Positions 6,514-58,304 of a stretch of DNA of 64,000 bases are shown here, piece after piece. The translations under genes and the position numbers were made by a program. This stretch comes from Methanobacteriota archaeon (GTDB lineage Archaea > Methanobacteriota > Methanobacteria > Methanobacteriales > Methanobacteriaceae). Position 1 is the stretch's first letter. Every line of letters begins with the position of its first letter. A model generated the notes under the pieces. That model was given only the letters and a program-made list of their open reading frames with translations, did not search any database and was not told where the DNA came from. The DNA is taken from the NCBI GenBank assembly GCA_963787255.1, contig CAWBCJ010000029.1, positions 64,001 to 128,000 on the forward strand, read 5' to 3'.

Positions 6514-6819
6514 CTACATAAATAGAGCAACCAGTAGAATTAGCCCTAATACAAATCCATACACCATATTGGTTAGTTTACCTGCACTCAAGTAAACACC
6601 TTCTCTTCCCGGGTAAGATCCTGGGGAAACTGTGGATGGATCAAGGCATGTGTATATATCTTCTACTGCAATCTCTAATTCGTCTAATTGATTATTTACT
6701 GTGTCCATGGACACTATTACGACATCTCTACCTAATGCGGCCCCTAACATCCCTGTAGAAGGGTCTAGAGTTAAGTTCATTTCAGGAACAACTTTTACTA
6801 ATGGTAACATTTCAGCCAT
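6514..6819 (-). CDS. mtrB: Mtr subunit B
   Basis: [13 protein letters not shown]; SYPGREG; TNMVYGF. Confidence 0.95.
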
Positions 6820-6831
6820 TTTAATTCCTCC

Positions 6832-7651
6832 TTAGTGCTCCTCTTCTTTAGGCCATAGACCAGACCATTTAACTGATGCTGCGTCTTTCTGCTGATGCTT
6901 TAAGGAATGATCTGAATTGATACAAACCATGCTAATGCACCAATTACAGCGATTAACCACCATGCACTGGATATTCCTATTGAAATAAGGCCTACAATTG
7001 CCATTGCCATGAATCCAGTGGATGCTGCCAGTTTAAGAGTTCTAACTTGATCTTCGTTTGGTCCTAAACATGCGTTGAATGGGTGTTGTATGGCCATTGT
7101 GTTCATGATGAACAGTAATGCTATGAATCCAGTATTAATTACTGTTAGTTGTATAACTGGCATTGCAATGCTTCCGGCTATAGCTGCTGAAAATCCGATT
7201 ACGGATAATGCTGCTGCACCTGATAATTCTGCTGTACACTGTACCAATACTGGTATTTTCATTTTAATTACTTTTTTACCAATAAGTGCAACTATTGCAC
7301 CTACTATCATAGCTATAATCAATCCCATTATAGGGCCTAAAATAGCTAGACCAGTTCCGAACACAAATGTTCCTGCAATTCCTGCTAATCCACCTACAAT
7401 ACCTATAGCAAGTGACATGTAACCTATGGAAGGTACACCTGTACCTAAACCGTAGCTTGCTACTCTTCTTATAGCGTCAGCACCCCATATTATGGCTGCG
7501 ACTGCTCCAAGAGCTGCAAATAGTGGTCCTAAAACTGGGCCTGCGAACGGTACTAAATATATACCTACAAGTCCGCCTATAACTCCAAGCGCTATCAGTA
7601 TATGGTTGCTGGTACGGCCACACCTGCGGGTCCTCCGCCTGCTGCTGACAT
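6832..7651 (-). CDS. mtrC: Mtr subunit C; indels near 7600 and 6900
   Basis: Starts MSAAGGGPAG; central AIQHPFNACLGPNEDQVRTL; ends DAASVKWSGLWPKEEEH*; pieces in different frames. Confidence 0.9.
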
Positions 7652-7652
7652 T

Positions 7653-8369
<717 letters not shown>

Positions 8370-8381
8370 TTTATTTCCTCC

Positions 8382-9269
8382 TTAATCTTCCAAGTATGGC
8401 CCGTATTTAGTTCTGGCAAATACTTCTATTCTGTTGTTGATGATTATCAATAGTATGAGTATTACTAGACCTGCAATGACTCCTCCTACTAATCCGAATA
8501 CTATTGTTATCCAGAAGCTTAGGAATACTATGAGTCCAAATGCAAAACCAGTAACCGGTCCACCGAATTTAGCACAGAAATAAACAACATCCATAGAGTT
8601 TCTTGGCCCGAGTTCTGAATTTCTGGTTATGTCACCGTGAATAGCAACTGGAATACCTCCACCAAATGGGTATTGTTGGTATTCTCTTTCTGCACCGTAG
8701 TGAACGTCTCCTGTTGATGAACCTATAGCACCGATTGTTATACCCCAAAGTACTGCAAGTAGCGGTAATGGGAACGGGTGACCTAATCCTTGGATTGGTA
8801 AAGTCATTAAGTACGATAATCCTACTATTGAAAATGTTACAATAAATCCGTGTCCTGTAATTGGTCCTAAGTGTTGTGTTATAACATCAAGGAACACTGG
8901 CTGGTTGAATTGTGATTGACTTACAATCCTACCTAAATGTGATGTTGTAGCGAATGCTGCATGAACCAAAGCAGCTACTGCTGCACCTGCAGCTATCGCC
9001 ATTATGACTGGTAGGTTTAATGATGCCATTAAAATAAATGCCACTGAACCTGCTATTCCTGCCCAAGTTCCCATCTGCACTGGTTCACCAGATATAGCTT
9101 TGTTAAACATTCTGTGAAGATTGCCCATCTGTGGGGCAAGTTGAACCTGAGAGTTAGGGTTACTCATGGATCCGACATCAGACTCTAAGTCCTCTGCGGC
9201 TCCAGCAATAGTTGCAGCGGCTCCCATAAGAGCAACAACGCCTAATCCTGTAATCATAGGGTCTACCAT
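8382..9269 (-). CDS. mtrE: Mtr subunit E (Na+-translocating)
   Basis: EDLESDVGS.SNPNSQVQLAPQMG; GSSTGDVHYGAER. Confidence 0.97.
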   Translation of the reverse strand: MVDPMITGLGVVALMGAAATIAGAAEDLESDVGSMSNPNSQVQLAPQMGNLHRMFNKAISGEPVQMGTWAGIAGSVAFILMASLNLPVIMAIAAGAAVAALVHAAFATTSHLGRIVSQSQFNQPVFLDVITQHLGPITGHGFIVTFSIVGLSYLMTLPIQGLGHPFPLPLLAVLWGITIGAIGSSTGDVHYGAEREYQQYPFGGGIPVAIHGDITRNSELGPRNSMDVVYFCAKFGGPVTGFAFGLIVFLSFWITIVFGLVGGVIAGLVILILLIIINNRIEVFARTKYGPYLED

Positions 9270-53504: not shown

Positions 53505-54224
53505 ATGCCATATTTGATATGTGAAAAGTGTAAAGGGTATTACGAGCTTCAAGTGGGAGAATCGATTGCAGATTTCGAAGAATGTGAATGTGGTGGCAGT
53601 TTAAAGCAGTTAGAATCCTTAGATATCCCCTACAATAAACAGAGGGTAAAAACTATCATTGAAACATTTAAAGATAATTATAAATCCTCCAAAGAAAAAT
53701 CTGAATACGCAGAGGAAACTCCAAAACTGAGCATTAGTGTTGATTATACTGAGGGTATAAATAGGCTGTTAAAAGAAGATAGACCATCAAAAAAAGATGC
53801 TAATGCAGAATTACAAAGATCTACTCTTAAAGAAGTAGCTTTAATTCCAGAACTCTACAATTTTAAGTATCTAGATTCCATAGATGACGATACATCATCT
53901 AAAATCATTGAAATAATTGCAGAAGTTGTTTACGAAGGTAAGGGAATAATAGACGCGACAAATGAAATAGTATCCAGAACATCCATAAAATATGATGACG
54001 CATTACACATTAGCAGAAATGAAATAAGCAGAATAAAAAACCTTGGAAACTGGTATATTCACAAAGAAAAAGGATATAACCATTTTAAAATATCTAAATC
54101 ATTTAATGCATGCGCAAAATGCGGTAAAGCATATGATAATATGATATTTACCATGGAACAGGTGGAAATGTTGCCCCCACTTCATGATCTGTGTAAATGT
54201 AACGCTATTTTTTATAAAGAATAA
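53505..54224 (+). CDS. N-terminal Zn-ribbon fused to a phage MuF (head morphogenesis)-like domain
   Basis: YLICEKC.GYYEL..GES..DF..CECGG.L at the N-terminus; C-terminal ISRNEISR...G...CAKC...PPLHDLCKC resembles MuF IARTE...CxxC...PPxHPxCRC. Confidence 0.62.
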
Positions 54225-54537: not shown

Positions 54538-56457
54538 TTAAGGATTTTGAGATTCAACAATCTCCCATATCTTTTCTTCAGGTAAATTAACTCCAAATAG
54601 AATTCCTGCTTTATTCAAATCCTTTTCAATCTTCTTTATTGCATGTATATCCGGTGCTGCAACAGTATGGGAATGCACATGTCTTGATATATTGTATAAA
54701 GCTTCCACAGATCTTCGGGCATCTGGCCTTTTAAGTTCATCTTCGCAGTTTTTCACGTCTTCTTCTGAAATAATATACAGATTTCTGGTTACAATTTGTC
54801 TAACACCAGGTAAATAATGCTTTGAATCCAGAATTCTGCCCCCATATTTTATAATTATTCTTTTATCATCAAGATTTGTAACCTCATGTTTTAAAAGAAA
54901 TTCAACAACCCGCCCATATTCTTTAATTTTAGATTTTATCTCATCACCGGATAGATTTACCCCTAATAAATATCCTTTTTCCTTTAATTCCTTTTCAACC
55001 CTGGAAAGGCTTTTAGTATCCGGTCCAGAGATAGTGTGGGAGTGAATTCCACCACCTGAAAGAGCATATAACCTTTCTAAAGATTCCATCTTAGAATTAT
55101 CATGTTCAAGGCTTTCTAAAAATTTATCCATATCTTCAAATTTAGATAAGCCTACTTTACGATGTAAAGGTTCGCGAAATCCTTGCAAATAATATTCTAT
55201 ATCTTCTAATGTGCATCCGTGTTTTAAAATAATCTCTGATTCAGCCCTTATATCACCAACAGCGTGATTCTCGGTTATTTTCATTTCTGGCTTTATAACA
55301 ACTTCAACCAAACGACCATATTTCCTTGCCATCTCTCTTATCTCTTTCTCGTCTAGATCAACACCTAAAAGAAGTCCTTCTTTTTTAAGCTCTTCTGCAA
55401 CTTTATTTAAAGTTTCTTTATCCGGTCCAGAAATCCAGTGTGAATGAATTCCACTAACTGATTCGTATATTCTCTCTAAAGCCCTTTTCCTTGAAGGTTC
55501 ACGTTCTAAACTATCCAAAAATTTATGTAATTCACCTATTTTTGTTATTCCTATTTTCCTTTCAAGGGGTTCTTTAAATTCAGGGAGATGATATTCAATA
55601 TCTTCTAGGGTACAACCGTGTTTTAGTATAATTTCTGCCTCTTTTTTGATTTTAGAGACGTTGTGCATCATTGTTATTTTCATAATGGTCGGCTCTACAG
55701 CTGCAAAGTATATGTCTTCCCCACCACTTGTTTCAGGAGAAATAACTCTATCTGCCCCTGATCTATAAAGTCTCTTAATATTTTCTCGTTTACTTGCCCT
55801 TGCAACGATCCAAATCTCAGGATGTATCTCTCGTGCGGTTAAAGTTATAAAAAGGTTGTCTACATCGTCTCCTGTTGTAATTATAACTCCTCTTGCTTTT
55901 TTTATCCCTGCATCCATCAATATGCTCTCATCTGTTGCATCTCCAGGAATTGCAAGAACTTCAGGATCTTCCCATAACTCTTTTTCTACAATTTTCCTAT
56001 CTCTTTCAATTATTATTCCCACCTGGTTTCTTTTTTTAAGCTCTCTGAAAACTGCTGCACCCACTCTACCGTATCCACAAAGCACGAAATGGTTTTTAGT
56101 TGCAGCCATTTTCTTTCTTAACCTGGAACCAGAGGTAATTTCTTCTACAGTCATTGTAACCACCGAAATTGTTAAAGTAAATACATAAGCTAGTAAACCA
56201 ACCCCTCCTAAAACAAGAGTTACTGTAAAAAGTTTTTGTAGAGGAGTTGCTGGACTAATGTCCCCATAACCCACAGTTGCTATAGTTATAACAGTAAAAT
56301 ATAAAGAATTGATTAAATCAAGGTGCATAATATATAAAGAACCTATTATTCCATAAACTGCTAAGGATATTAGAGCTATTAAAGCATATGTCAATATACT
56401 ATAAGAAATTGAAGGCATATTTTCCGAGATTGCAGGAAGCTTAGGTCTTTGGGCCAC
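54538..56457 (-). CDS. K+ channel with RCK domain and three tandem 3H (NiaR-type) domains
   Basis: TVGYGD filter between two TM helices; CGYGRVG RCK motif; three repeats ending (I/V)HSH(W/T); GTG start after GGTGAT. Confidence 0.88.
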
Positions 56458-56556
56458 CAAATCACCATGAAGATAAATAATAAATTTTAAAGAAATCAAG
56501 TATTATTAAATAATTGGTTTTATAGATAATAAATATATTATATACAAAGTGATAAC

Positions 56557-58029
56557 ATGACCCCCAAGGACATGATGGTAGCTGATAGCAATGCAGAAGA
56601 TTTGGGAATTCCTAAATCTGTTTTGATGGAAAATGCAGGTAAATCTGTTGCTGATCATATTATTAACATTTTAGATCCATGTAAAGTTACTATATTTGCC
56701 GGTACAGGCGGTAACGGTGGTGACGGATTTGTTGCAGCAAGGCATCTTTTAAACAACAGTTACAGCGTGGATTTATTTTTTTTAGGATATCCAAATAGGA
56801 TTAAATCACCTGAAACTCTTCAAAATTGGACTGCAATTCAAAATATTAGTATAGGTCTAAATTCTCTTAAATTAGAAGTTATTGAAGATTCATCTGCACT
56901 CCCAAAAGTTGATTCTCCAGTTATTGTTGATGCACTGCTTGGAACTGGAATCCATGGTAAAATTAAAGAGCCTATTTCCAGTGCAATTGACATTGTAAAC
57001 AAATCAAGAGGAATTAAAATTGCAGTTGATATGCCAAGCGGACTAGATCCTTTAACTGGTGAAGCTCCAGATAAAGCCGTGGAGGCAGATTACACCATTA
57101 CATTCCATAAAATCAAAACTGGACTTAAAAAAACAGAAATAAAGTACGTTGGAAATATTATTGTGTACGACATAGGCATTCCAAAAGAAGCCGAAACGTT
57201 TTTAGGCAAAGGAGACCTTTTACGTCTCAAAAAACGAGATATTACCTCCCATAAGGGCAATAATGGAACAGTTCTTGTAGTTGGCGGAAGTTCAGATTAT
57301 TCCGGTGCTCCAACATTTGCAGGACTTTCTGCTTTTAAATCTGGTGTTGATTTAGTTTATGTTGCCTGTCCTGAAAGTGTCTCCTCAACAATCAGATCAT
57401 ATTCGCCGGATTTAATTGTAAATACACTTTCTCATGACTTTATTGTTGATGATGATGTTGATAAAATAATAGAACTTTCAAAAAAAGCGGATTCAGTTGT
57501 AATTGGCTGCGGTATTGGAAGAAATAACGAAACAACTTTAGCTGTAAATGAAATCGTTAGTGAAATCAAAAAACCAATGGTGATAGATGCAGATGGTTTA
57601 AAATTATTATATACTGATGTAATTAAGGAAATAGAAAGTGAAATAGTAGTTACACCCCATTCAGCAGAATTTGAATCATTATTTAGTATAAAAATGCCGG
57701 ATAGGCTTGAAGATAAAATAGAAACTGTTTCAAAAGCTGCTGGGGAAAATAATTGTGTTGTTCTTCTAAAAGGAGTTCTTGATATAATATCAAATGGCAA
57801 AAAAACAAGACTCAATAAAACTGGAAATCCTGGAATGACCGTTGGAGGTACAGGAGATTGTCTTGCAGGTCTTGTTGGGGGATTAATGGCTCAAGGACAT
57901 GATGGCTTTGAAGCTGCTTGCCTGGGTGCTTATATAAATGGTAGAGCTGGAGATATGGCCGCGGAGAAATACGAATATCACTTTATGGCAAGTGACATGA
58001 TAAAATACATTGATGACGCATTTAGATAA
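56557..58029 (+). CDS. nnr: Bifunctional NAD(P)H-hydrate epimerase/dehydratase
   Basis: LMENAG, GGNGGDG..AAR, DALLGTG, DMPSG; SHKG..G, DADG, TPH..EF, GGTGD.LAG. Confidence 0.95.
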   Translation: MTPKDMMVADSNAEDLGIPKSVLMENAGKSVADHIINILDPCKVTIFAGTGGNGGDGFVAARHLLNNSYSVDLFFLGYPNRIKSPETLQNWTAIQNISIGLNSLKLEVIEDSSALPKVDSPVIVDALLGTGIHGKIKEPISSAIDIVNKSRGIKIAVDMPSGLDPLTGEAPDKAVEADYTITFHKIKTGLKKTEIKYVGNIIVYDIGIPKEAETFLGKGDLLRLKKRDITSHKGNNGTVLVVGGSSDYSGAPTFAGLSAFKSGVDLVYVACPESVSSTIRSYSPDLIVNTLSHDFIVDDDVDKIIELSKKADSVVIGCGIGRNNETTLAVNEIVSEIKKPMVIDADGLKLLYTDVIKEIESEIVVTPHSAEFESLFSIKMPDRLEDKIETVSKAAGENNCVVLLKGVLDIISNGKKTRLNKTGNPGMTVGGTGDCLAGLVGGLMAQGHDGFEAACLGAYINGRAGDMAAEKYEYHFMASDMIKYIDDAFR

Positions 58030-58049: not shown

Positions 58050-58304
58050 TTAGAATAATCCAAGTGCCTGTGCAATTATTAAAAGTATAACTCCAAATAC
58101 TCCTCCAAATCCTGCAATTAAAACGGTTAATATATTTATTGGAATGTTGATGAAAGGAAGTAAATTAACAATGACTAGGAAAATCCATCCGAGAATTACA
58201 TGAACCAGTATTTTTAAAAGCAGTCCGCCTAATTTAATTATAACTATAATCCCAATTAGTGCAATAATTACTATTACAGCTGCTGTTATCAGATCCAAAG
58301 CCAT
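58050..58304 (-). CDS. BofA-family small membrane protein
   Basis: H.ILGWI.L.IVN.....IPINI.T.LIAG.GG.FGV pattern. Confidence 0.72.
   Translation of the reverse strand: MALDLITAAVIVIIALIGIIVIIKLGGLLLKILVHVILGWIFLVIVNLLPFINIPINILTVLIAGFGGVFGVILLIIAQALGLF

What the first reader, a model, noticed from the sequence alone, without database searches (positions are those of the whole stretch)
54538..58029. K+ channel with three tandem NiaR-type 3H domains, head-to-head with the NAD(P)HX repair enzyme
Seen: a 2-TM pore (TVGYGD) and a Rossmann RCK domain (GYGRVG) are followed by three ~130-aa repeats. Repeats 1 and 2 are 399 bp apart and still similar in DNA (55591 vs 55192). Each has an N-terminal His and a C-terminal HxH (MMH..IHSHW; ENH..IHSHT; LKH..VHSHT). 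Repeats 1 and 2 keep the Glu after the first His; repeat 3 lacks it. Only ~100 bp separate this gene from the divergent nnr. Established: in NiaR (YrxA/TM1602) the 3H domain binds a metal through three His and senses nicotinic acid, and RCK domains gate K+ channels on nucleotides or Ca2+. Inference: a channel that couples K+ flux to niacin, NAD-damage metabolites or transition-metal status, sharing a control region with NAD(P)HX repair. I know of no functional description of such a system.
Basis: partly seen in the sequence, partly recalled or inferred. Interest (0 to 1): 0.8.

Follow-up and report, generated by a model that had tools for sequence, protein, structure and literature searches.

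The report
Potassium channel with three 3H sensors
This methanogen gene encodes a potassium channel whose usual regulatory tail is replaced by three metal-binding "3H" sensor domains; the design is real and untested at the bench, but it is already annotated, and its supposed link to the neighbouring NAD-repair gene looks like ordinary conserved gene order.

Summary
Window 54538-56460(-) encodes a 640-653 aa protein with a 2-TM K+ pore (TVGYGD), a TrkA_N/RCK Rossmann lobe (GYGRVG) and three Pfam 3H domains (E 4e-61). It lies head-to-head with a bifunctional nnr.

Each repeat alone hits NiaR structures. The modelled 3H part matches only NiaR in the PDB at E<=0.001. Repeats 1 and 2 keep the NiaR metal set H/E/HxH. 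Repeat 3 has invariant D-K in place of the Glu.

The family is not new as an object. Over 100 homologs carry the name "3H domain-containing protein". A 2008 paper lists 3H fusions to TrkA modules. Versions with one, two or three 3H domains occur across Methanobacteria and in Methanopyrus.

The nnr link is weak:
- The whole ~17 kb block is collinear where the pair is kept.
- The ftr neighbour is kept at least as well.
- nnr lies about 640 kb away in the most distant genus.
- nnr is absent beside 3 of 3 Methanopyrus-like genes.

No nicotinate phosphoribosyltransferase was found in this genome. The best reading is a nucleotide- and metabolite-gated K+ channel with an unknown 3H ligand.

The parts
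54538..56460 (-). Channel gene: 640 aa from TTG 56460, stop at 54538-54540. Alternative starts are TTG 56499 (653 aa), GTG 56457 and ATG 56418 (626 aa).
   Evidence: ORF list; homolog lengths of 640 and 626-629 aa; N-termini of homologs; GGTGAT just upstream of TTG/GTG.
56332..56403 (-). TM1 (residues 20-43, 640-aa numbering).
   Evidence: Helix 20-43 in the AF2 model; Pfam Ion_trans_2.
56260..56316 (-). Pore helix and selectivity filter T62-V-G-Y-G-D67.
   Evidence: Sequence; filter is T138, V136, G138, Y98/F40, G138, D138 of 138 homologs; helix 49-62.
56161..56244 (-). TM2 (residues 73 to about 100). In the model the helix runs on to residue 120 as the linker to the RCK lobe.
   Evidence: Helix 73-120 in the AF2 model; alignment to MthK residues 8-237.
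55735..56088 (-). RCK/KTN N-lobe (TrkA_N, residues 125-242) with G129-Y-G-R-V-G134 and E152 at the end of strand 2.
   Evidence: Pfam TrkA_N 5.6e-35; PDB hits to GsuK, MthK and KtrA RCK domains; GxGxxG and E152 conserved in 137-138 of 138.
55360..55689 (-). 3H repeat 1 (residues 258-367): H266, E274, H339, H341.
   Evidence: Pfam 3H; TmNiaR hit at E 3.9e-6 with H and E aligned to H79 and E87; H266 in 137/138, the other three in 138/138.
54958..55290 (-). 3H repeat 2 (residues 391-501): H399, E407, H473, H475.
   Evidence: Best Pfam 3H stretch; NiaR hits at 4.5e-7 and 9.9e-7; all four residues in 138/138.
54589..54912 (-). 3H repeat 3 (residues 517-624): H525, D532-K533 in place of the Glu, H596, H598. 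Its pocket differs from repeats 1 and 2.
   Evidence: TmNiaR hit at 1.8e-4 with K533 aligned to E87 and D532 to E86; H525, D532, K533, H596 and H598 in 138/138; separate clade with 100/100 support.
56461..56556 (.). Divergent intergenic region. It holds an AT-rich block conserved within the genus, including ATTATTAAATAAT (56502-56514) and TATA-like runs.
   Evidence: Sequence; alignment of 21 intergenic regions, conserved in genus g1 and not alignable in g4 or g5.
56557..58029 (+). nnr: bifunctional NAD(P)HX epimerase (YjeF_N) and ADP-dependent dehydratase (Carb_kinase). It is a neighbour and was not shown to be part of the system.
   Evidence: Pfam and NCBIfam; synteny tests.

Best explanation
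This is an MthK-like 2-TM K+ channel, presumably a tetramer. Its cytoplasmic gate is a nucleotide-type KTN/RCK N-lobe. The usual TrkA_C lobe is replaced by three tandem 3H domains.

Shown here:
- The domain order.
- The K+ selectivity filter.
- The intact GxGxxG...E dinucleotide motif.
- The NiaR-type fold of each repeat.
- Strict conservation of a NiaR-like metal set in repeats 1 and 2 (His, Glu, HxH) and of a variant set in repeat 3 (His, Asp-Lys, HxH).

Inferred:
- Each 3H domain holds a divalent metal as a cofactor.
- Through that metal it binds a small, probably carboxylate-bearing, metabolite, as NiaR binds niacin.
- Occupancy changes 3H packing and so the KTN dimer hinge just upstream.
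- That change, together with NAD(H) or ATP/ADP at the Rossmann site, opens or closes the pore.

The ligand is unknown. Repeats 1 and 2 probably bind the same compound, and repeat 3 something else or nothing. The family is lineage-specific to Methanobacteria and Methanopyrus, with one to three 3H domains. The triplication is old. The nnr adjacency is inherited gene order.
For: - Domains: Pfam and NCBIfam.
- PDB by sequence: MthK 2e-28 over residues 24-261 and GsuK RCK 1e-17.
- Foldseek of the full model (pLDDT 84): MthK and GsuK, aligned over about 355-363 columns.
- 3H part: model pLDDT 87.9 with a strand-helix-strand-strand-helix-helix-strand-helix-strand pattern in each repeat. Its only PDB matches at E<=0.001 are NiaR 1j5y, 7cv0 and 9ebr, probability 1.00.
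- Each repeat alone hits TmNiaR.
- Ligand residues are conserved in 137-138 of 138 full-length homologs in all three repeats; these homologs are close kin and not independent.
- NiaR chemistry: metal bound by Glu and HxH, niacin carboxylate on the metal, first His hydrogen-bonding it, and Tyr112' from the partner subunit lining the pocket (PMC7713382, passages).
- In the MthK alignment the positions I recall as MthK's Ca2+ ligands (D184, E210, E212) read T, R and S here, and MthK has no GxGxxG (residue roles recalled).
- Repeats form three separate clades across five genera, and orthologous repeats are more alike (55-75%) than paralogous ones (28-62%).
- Forms with one, two and three 3H domains exist.
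Against: - No experiment or expression data exists for any member. No RNA run was listed for this stretch.
- Domain arrangement is not reliable: pTM is 0.46 for the full model and 0.56 for the 3H part. The hinge-coupling step is therefore inference.
- Only one helix (247-254) lies between the Rossmann fold and the first 3H strand, so the ring may assemble differently from MthK.
- An internal Met like the one I recall giving MthK its soluble RCK subunit is present in only 33 of 138 homologs. How an eight-RCK ring would form is open.
- In G033 the gene is interrupted just after the filter, and G037 matches only from residue 76. The channel is dispensable in some species.
- The 3H domains could be purely structural.
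Confidence: 0.65

Rival explanations
1. One reading: the 3H domains sense niacin or an NAD-damage product such as NAD(P)HX, and the channel shares a control region with nnr, so that K+ flux is tied to NAD repair.
For: - The only characterised 3H ligand is niacin.
- Several pocket positions stay hydrophobic in repeats 1 and 2: BhNiaR M88, V105, L119, F130 and M134 correspond to I, I, V/I, F and L (mapped by me from the alignment).
- The divergent pair is kept in 29 of 30 loci and 24 of 30 loci, covering three GTDB families and including single-3H genera.
- The intergenic block is conserved within the genus.
- The RCK lobe has an NAD-type GxGxxG...E motif.
Against: - The whole block of about 17 kb is collinear in those genomes.
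- The ftr neighbour is kept in 26 of 30 loci and also in G039, where nnr is about 640 kb away.
- 0 of 3 Methanopyrus-like loci have nnr within their flanks.
- 5 of 30 loci lack nnr.
- nnr is present in 3 of 3 genomes that gave no full-length channel match (G023, G024, G040).
- No PF04095 NAPRTase was found in G000, while the control rang in 8 of 14 reference genomes.
- BhNiaR L92 corresponds to A or S, and a 5-6 residue insertion precedes HxH.
- The intergenic block is not alignable in g4 or g5.
Confidence: 0.1
2. Metal sensor: the 3H sites are empty at rest, and the channel responds to free Ni2+, Zn2+ or Fe2+.
For: - His/Glu/HxH sites are conserved in all repeats.
- Ni, Cu or Zn were considered for TmNiaR (PMC7713382).
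- Methanogens have a high nickel demand (recalled).
Against: - BhNiaR was purified with fully occupied Zn, and the metal acts as a cofactor for niacin and DNA binding.
- Sites built from two or three His plus a carboxylate are typically tight.
- Nothing in the neighbourhood concerns metal transport.
Confidence: 0.1
3. Structural only: the three 3H domains are degenerate stand-ins for the RCK C-lobe that build or space the gating ring. Gating is by nucleotides alone.
For: - The first 3H sits where the MthK C-lobe lies; Foldseek aligns about 360 columns to a 317-residue MthK chain.
- The number of 3H domains varies between 1, 2 and 3 among relatives.
- The 3H of the kinase paralog has lost the first His and the Glu.
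Against: - The putative ligand residues are invariant in all three repeats over 138 sequences, and the repeats have been kept distinct since before the genera split.
- That pattern is hard to explain without a binding function.
Confidence: 0.12

Closest known systems
MthK (Ca2+-gated K+ channel, PDB 1lnq, 6oly and others)
   Same: 2-TM pore with a TVGYGD-type filter followed by an RCK N-lobe. Sequence E 2e-28 over residues 24-261; top Foldseek hits. This genome also has a separate MthK-like paralog at G000:C29:294537-295244.
   Different: MthK has a TrkA_C-type C-lobe and no GxGxxG. The positions I recall as its Ca2+ ligands read T, R and S here (roles recalled). Here the C-lobe is replaced by three 3H domains. 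The internal Met that I recall giving MthK its soluble RCK is not conserved (33 of 138).
GsuK (multi-ligand RCK K+ channel, PDB 4gx0, 4gx1, 4gx2, 4gx5)
   Same: Best PDB sequence hit for the Rossmann lobe (6.4e-29 overall; second RCK 9.9e-18). Entries are titled as bound to NAD and to ADP, which fits a nucleotide-type site here.
   Different: GsuK has two RCK domains per chain and no 3H domain.
NiaR (TM1602, PDB 1j5y and 9ebr; B. halodurans NiaR, PDB 7cv0 and 7cv2)
   Same: Same 3H fold and same H/E/HxH metal set in repeats 1 and 2.
   Different: NiaR is a winged-helix repressor of NAD genes with one 3H domain. Here there is no DNA-binding domain and there are three 3H domains. A 5-6 residue insertion with a conserved L-x-x-[LI]-Y precedes HxH. 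BhNiaR L92 corresponds to A or S. Repeat 3 has Lys at the Glu position.
PRK12338 kinase-3H protein (2-phosphoglycerate-kinase-like), G000:C29:~910.7-911.6 kb
   Same: It is the only other 3H protein in this genome, and 3H is found in 119 of 121 sampled genomes of the class. Relatives' copies of its 3H domain were 30-45% identical to repeats 1 or 2, and it shares the Y-Y-L-x-G-F-R-E-P and L-E-x-L-Y motifs.
   Different: It is a soluble P-loop kinase. Its 3H has Asn for the first His and Val for the Glu. It is not the 2PGK equivalog: NF003259 scores 195 bits against a cut-off of 343. The true 2PGK is a separate gene.
Single-3H channels of Methanobrevibacter (P0272, 377 aa) and Methanopyrus (P0289, AAM02762.1, 380 aa)
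   Same: Same pore-TrkA_N-3H order. Identities are 39% and 27%. The Methanobrevibacter-type 3H groups with repeat 1.
   Different: One 3H domain instead of three. The Methanopyrus form has a degenerate filter region in P0289 (TGVGCAN).

Membership tests
RCK-gated 2-TM K+ channel (MthK-like) | K+ selectivity filter T-V-G-Y/F-G-D between two TM helices | tested here: met
   TVGYGD at residues 62-67; conserved in 136-138 of 138. Model helices 20-43, 49-62 and 73-120. Pfam Ion_trans_2 at 51 bits against a cut-off of 22.5.
RCK-gated 2-TM K+ channel (MthK-like) | RCK/KTN N-lobe (TrkA_N) after the pore | tested here: met
   PF02254 at 120.6 bits against a cut-off of 23.8; PDB hits.
RCK-gated 2-TM K+ channel (MthK-like) | RCK C-lobe (TrkA_C) | tested here: not met
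   No PF02080 hit at E<=1; 3H follows one helix after the Rossmann fold. Other channels in the same search do carry TrkA_C (P0133, P0134, P0179).
RCK-gated 2-TM K+ channel (MthK-like) | MthK Ca2+-site residues (D184, E210, E212; recalled) | tested here: not met
   They align to T, R and S.
RCK-gated 2-TM K+ channel (MthK-like) | Tetramer with a cytoplasmic gating ring; K+ conduction | not testable with these tools
   No oligomer model was run and there is no assay.
3H domain (PF02829) | Profile match above the gathering score | tested here: met
   203.6 bits against a cut-off of 25, in three stretches. In the genome search each stretch scores 66-79 bits.
3H domain (PF02829) | Three conserved His (one N-terminal, then HxH) plus Glu | tested here: met
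   Repeats 1 and 2 have the full set. Repeat 3 has three His, with Lys (preceded by Asp) at the Glu position.
3H domain (PF02829) | HPr-like alpha/beta fold as in NiaR | tested here: met
   Foldseek hits 1j5y at 1.5e-6, 7cv0 at 2.1e-5 and 9ebr at 3.8e-5, probability 1.00, TM-score on target 0.56-0.59; nothing else at E<=0.001.
NiaR (niacin-responsive repressor) | N-terminal winged-helix DNA-binding domain | tested here: not met
   No such Pfam domain was found; the N-terminus is a channel.
NiaR (niacin-responsive repressor) | Niacin pocket (BhNiaR M88, L92, V105, L119, F130, M134, L141, L142, Y112') | tested here: inconclusive
   Repeat 2 reads I, S, I, V, F, L, M, E, F, with a 5-residue gap in NiaR just after L142. 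Repeat 1 is similar and repeat 3 differs (L, R/K..., C). These were mapped by hand and from the repeat alignments.
NiaR (niacin-responsive repressor) | Genomic link to NAD synthesis or niacin salvage genes | tested here: not met
   The only NAD-related neighbour is nnr, which is explained by block synteny. No NAPRTase was found in G000.

The most novel reading that the evidence does not exclude
The archaeal 3H domains sense a phosphorylated or plain carboxylate of the methanogen's own solute metabolism, not niacin. On this reading the channel matches cellular K+ to its organic counter-anion.

The lead:
- In 119 of 121 sampled genomes of the class, 3H occurs. In this genome the only other 3H carrier is a kinase of the 2-phosphoglycerate-kinase family.
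- 2PGK starts the synthesis of cyclic 2,3-diphosphoglycerate, a solute reported at 0.07-1.1 M in relatives. Both enzymes of that pathway are activated by K+ (PMC10690619, passages).

Three non-equivalent sites (repeats 1 and 2 against repeat 3) plus a nucleotide site would make it a multi-input channel. It would be the first K+ channel gated through a metal-cofactor small-molecule sensor.
Probability: 0.1. Interest if true: 0.75.

Novelty: new variant of a known kind. Interest (0 to 1): 0.42.

Why it matters
RCK channels are the main model for ligand gating of K+ pores, and the ligands known so far are Ca2+ and other ions, nucleotides and c-di-AMP. A channel in which the RCK C-lobe is swapped for one to three metal-dependent 3H sensors would add a new input class. 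It would also give the first handle on what 3H domains sense outside NiaR. The protein is small and soluble-domain-rich, and it has thermophilic orthologs (genera g4 and g6), so it suits structural and flux work. As a genome finding it is modest, because the architecture is already annotated and the proposed tie to NAD(P)HX repair does not hold up.

Tried and rejected
1. nnr coupling was tested by synteny at four depths and rejected as specific evidence.

2. Recent duplication or gene conversion of repeats 1 and 2 was rejected. Third-position identity is 55/115 and the repeats are orthologous across genera.

3. A conserved internal start giving a soluble RCK-3H subunit was rejected for this gene: Met118 occurs in 33 of 138 homologs. 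Pore-less paralogs do sit next to the channel in G004 and G021.

4. A shared operator in the intergenic region: only an AT-rich block conserved within the genus was found, and nothing is alignable in g4 or g5. This is no evidence either way.

5. Expression: no RNA holder was listed for the stretch, and read laying was not used.

6. The cyclic-diphosphoglycerate idea could not be tested further. I had no seed or family accession for the cDPG synthetase. The 3H kinase is not the 2PGK equivalog.

7. Earlier scan notes: two look-ups returned nothing.

8. Literature:
   - '3H domain' with 'potassium channel' gave 0 papers.
   - 'PF02829' gave 1 paper, on NiaR.
   - Of the 15 papers listed (of 119 holding at least two of '3H domain', TrkA, 2-phosphoglycerate kinase, RCK), only two NiaR-type papers hold '3H domain'.
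   - '3H domain' with 'archaea' gave 5 papers (4 listed), none of them on a channel by title.
   - The 2001 domain survey cited as reference 38 in PMC2330245 is not in the library and was not seen.
   - Supplements, such as Figure S2 of PMC2330245, were not opened.

9. Complex prediction, the protein-atlas search and the third fold search were not used. Metal-site geometry was not measured because model coordinates are not exposed.
Full report
**What is there**

Window 54538-56499(-) is one open frame of 653 aa. Pfam finds Ion_trans_2 (residues 47-115), TrkA_N (138-255) and three 3H stretches (E 4.3e-61), and lists no TrkA_C. NCBIfam adds only below-cut-off likeness to Kch/TrkA models and to PRK12338, a kinase-3H protein.

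The real start is probably TTG 56460 or GTG 56457. Most homologs are 640 aa and others are 626-629 aa. A congener has no Met at the M28 position. GGTGAT lies just upstream. I number from TTG 56460 (640 aa). The gap to the nnr ATG at 56557 is then 96 bp.

nnr (56557-58029, +) is the bifunctional YjeF_N plus Carb_kinase enzyme.

**The repeats**

The first His residues are at 266, 399 and 525, and the HxH motifs at 339-341, 473-475 and 596-598. Repeats 1 and 2 are 133-134 aa apart, which is 399 bp or 402 bp.

| Pair | Protein identity | DNA identity |
|---|---|---|
| Repeat 1 vs 2 | 57% | 217/345 = 63% |
| Repeat 1 vs 3 | 28% | 51% |
| Repeat 2 vs 3 | 31% | 52% |

Third codon positions of repeats 1 and 2 agree at 55/115, so this is old similarity held by selection on the protein.

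Orthologous repeats in five genera are 55-75% identical, more than the repeats are to each other within one protein. In a maximum-likelihood tree of 33 repeat sequences, each repeat forms its own clade: repeat 3 with 100/100 support, repeat 2 with 97/94 and repeat 1 with 84/85. The triplication therefore predates the split of these genera. The single 3H of the Methanobrevibacter-type channel falls with repeat 1.

**Are they 3H domains?**

Yes. Each repeat alone finds T. maritima NiaR in the PDB: repeat 1 at 3.9e-6, repeat 2 at 4.5e-7 and repeat 3 at 1.8e-4.

An AlphaFold2 model of residues 256-640 has pLDDT 87.9 and pTM 0.56 (32-sequence alignment A3). It gives the same strand-helix-strand-strand-helix-helix-strand-helix-strand unit three times, each followed by a linker helix. 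Foldseek against the PDB returns only NiaR (1j5y, 7cv0, 9ebr) at E<=0.001, with probability 1.00.

The full-length model has pLDDT 84.0 and pTM 0.46. It matches MthK and GsuK, with about 360 aligned columns against a 317-residue MthK chain. The first 3H therefore sits where the RCK C-lobe normally is. Domain packing is not trustworthy at these pTM values.

**Sites**

From the NiaR structure paper (PMC7713382, passages read):
- TmNiaR binds its metal with H79, E87, H146 and H148.
- BhNiaR binds Zn with E91, H150 and H152.
- The niacin carboxylate sits on the Zn, and H83 hydrogen-bonds it.
- A hydrophobic pocket includes Tyr112' of the partner subunit.
- The H152A protein is metal-free and binds DNA poorly.

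I examined 138 full-length homologs. These were 133 database proteins of 590-700 aa, four locus translations and the window protein. They are mostly one genus and so not independent.

| Region | Residues and counts of 138 |
|---|---|
| Repeat 1 | H266 137; E274, H339, H341 138 each |
| Repeat 2 | H399, E407, H473, H475 138 each |
| Repeat 3 | H525, D532, K533, H596, H598 138 each |

HMMER aligns K533, not D532, with the Glu ligand.

By my hand mapping, pocket positions in repeats 1 and 2 stay mostly hydrophobic (I, A/S, I, V/I, F, L). However, BhNiaR L92 corresponds to a small residue, and a 5-6 residue insertion with a conserved L-x-x-[LI]-Y precedes HxH. Repeat 3 differs at several positions.

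**The pore and the RCK lobe**

The filter is T-V-G-[Y/F]-G-D in 136-138 of 138. The motif G129-x-G-x-x-G134 and E152 at the end of strand 2 are present in 137-138 of 138. The best PDB relatives of this lobe are GsuK, whose entries are titled as bound to NAD and to ADP, then MthK and KtrA.

In the MthK alignment, the positions I recall as its Ca2+ ligands read T, R and S. This is a nucleotide-type lobe and not a Ca2+-type one. The genome also holds a separate MthK-like gene.

**Distribution and prior knowledge**

More than 100 full-length homologs at 70-95% identity exist. Many are named "3H domain-containing protein" or "voltage-gated potassium channel" by their sources.

Among 1.84 billion cluster representatives, the only complete triple form listed is P0122 (646 aa, 66% identity). 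The other matches that reach the 3H part are fragments or 268-381 aa single-3H forms. By their source names these are from Methanobrevibacter and Methanopyrus, including AAM02762.1.

In 41 related genomes, full-length or near-full matches occur in 22 of 23 of the genus, counting G000; the miss, G012, is 84% complete. They also occur in 9 of 9 of g4 (two matched only from residue 76-77), in 5 of 5 of g5 (one split over two contigs) and in 1 of 1 of g6. There are none in G023, G024 or G040.

In an even sample of 121 genomes of the class, 93 have a channel of this kind. Open frames are about 376-428 aa (one 3H), 522 aa (second copies in G113 and G115, aligned to repeats 1 and 2 only) or about 630-680 aa (three 3H).

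[quoted passage not shown] I found no paper that combines '3H domain' with 'potassium channel' (0 papers) and no channel study in the other three searches. The architecture is known and annotated, but no functional study turned up in the library searched.

**The nnr link**

nnr lies divergently next to the channel in 29 of 30 loci from the relatives; the other locus is cut by a contig end. In the class sample it does so in 24 of 30 loci. Five lack it (L046, L047, L048 and the two second copies L066 and L067), and one is cut (L050).

The control speaks against a specific link:
- In g1, g4 and g5 the whole region from about window 46.5 kb to 63.9 kb is collinear. It includes argG, nnr, the channel, ftr and others.
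- The convergent neighbour ftr is kept in 26 of 30 loci.
- In G039, the most distant genus with the triple channel, the ftr side is kept. No nnr lies within 8.3 kb upstream, and nnr sits about 640 kb away on the same contig.
- None of three Methanopyrus-like loci has nnr, or any other gene of this window, in its flanks.
- nnr is present in the three genomes that gave no full-length channel match.
- The intergenic region has an AT-rich block conserved within the genus, with TATA-like runs and a 6-1-6 palindrome at 56502-56514. It is not alignable in g4 or g5.

I read the pair as inherited gene order, possibly with ordinary back-to-back promoters.

**Niacin**

No NAPRTase (PF04095) was found in this 95%-complete genome, although the same search rang in 8 of 14 control genomes. 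This does not exclude niacin as a ligand. It does remove the obvious physiological reason for sensing it.

**Another lead**

The only other 3H protein in this genome is a 323-aa P-loop kinase, NF008995/PRK12338. In relatives, copies of its 3H domain were 30-45% identical to repeats 1 or 2. It belongs to the 2-phosphoglycerate-kinase family but is not the 2PGK equivalog, which is a separate gene. Its 3H has lost the first His and the Glu.

2PGK starts the synthesis of cyclic 2,3-diphosphoglycerate. This solute is reported in thermophilic relatives, and both of its enzymes are K+-activated (PMC10690619 and PMC1224877, passages). A K+ channel and a kinase of this family sharing a sensor domain suggests a common metabolite signal. 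I could not test this further and give it low odds.

**Verdict**

The most likely function is a K+ channel gated by a nucleotide at the KTN lobe and by an unknown small ligand at metal-bearing 3H sites. Two of the sites are canonical and one is a variant. It is a new variant of a known kind: annotated, uncharacterised, and a reasonable target for biochemistry.

Noticed in passing
L040 (G004:C35) 6582-8198 and G021:C12:23745-25361: Two congeners carry a second gene directly downstream of the channel. It aligns from residue ~112-114 to the end at 73-74% identity, in 552-564 aa frames. This is a pore-less RCK plus three 3H paralog that could serve as a soluble ring subunit.
   Followed up: partly
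L039 (G033:C1) about 8590-8690; also G037:C1:1149295-1151022: In G033 the channel gene is interrupted just after the filter. A ~32-bp stretch (the codons for YGDITPLTVT) is directly duplicated with ~21 bp between the copies, giving a stop and a frame change. G037 matches only from residue 76. The gene is probably a pseudogene or a split gene in these two species.
   Followed up: partly
L066 (G113:C2:248554-249645) and L067 (G115:C1:1540273-1541370): These are second channel copies with 522-aa frames. They align to pore, RCK and repeats 1-2 only at 65% identity, and neither nnr nor ftr is nearby. They represent a two-3H form.
   Followed up: no
window 53505-54224 (+): A 239-aa protein with Cys-rich ends and a weak Phage_Mu_F match (E 2.5e-4, below the cut-off). 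It sits between ftr and the channel in this genus and was not detected at this place in the g4, g5 or g6 loci.
   Followed up: no
A1 alignment, C-termini of homologs: Many homologs, including those of g4, g5 and g6, end in a conserved E-x-F-C-[IV]-x tail. The window's protein, which ends ESQNP, lacks it.
   Followed up: no
window 56502-56514: A perfect 6-1-6 inverted repeat, ATTATTAAATAAT, lies inside the genus-conserved AT-rich intergenic block. In some congeners one arm differs.
   Followed up: partly
window 58050-58304 (-): An 84-aa membrane protein with a BofA family match (7.6e-11) lies directly after nnr. BofA is a family known from Bacillus sporulation, so its presence in a methanogen is odd.
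   Followed up: no
P0289 (Methanopyrus single-3H channel), A1 columns 70-85: The filter region reads TGVGCAN instead of T-V-G-Y-G-D, and the Pfam Ion_trans_2 score of its cluster-mate P0141 is weak (23.7 bits). This lineage may not be K+-selective.
   Followed up: no
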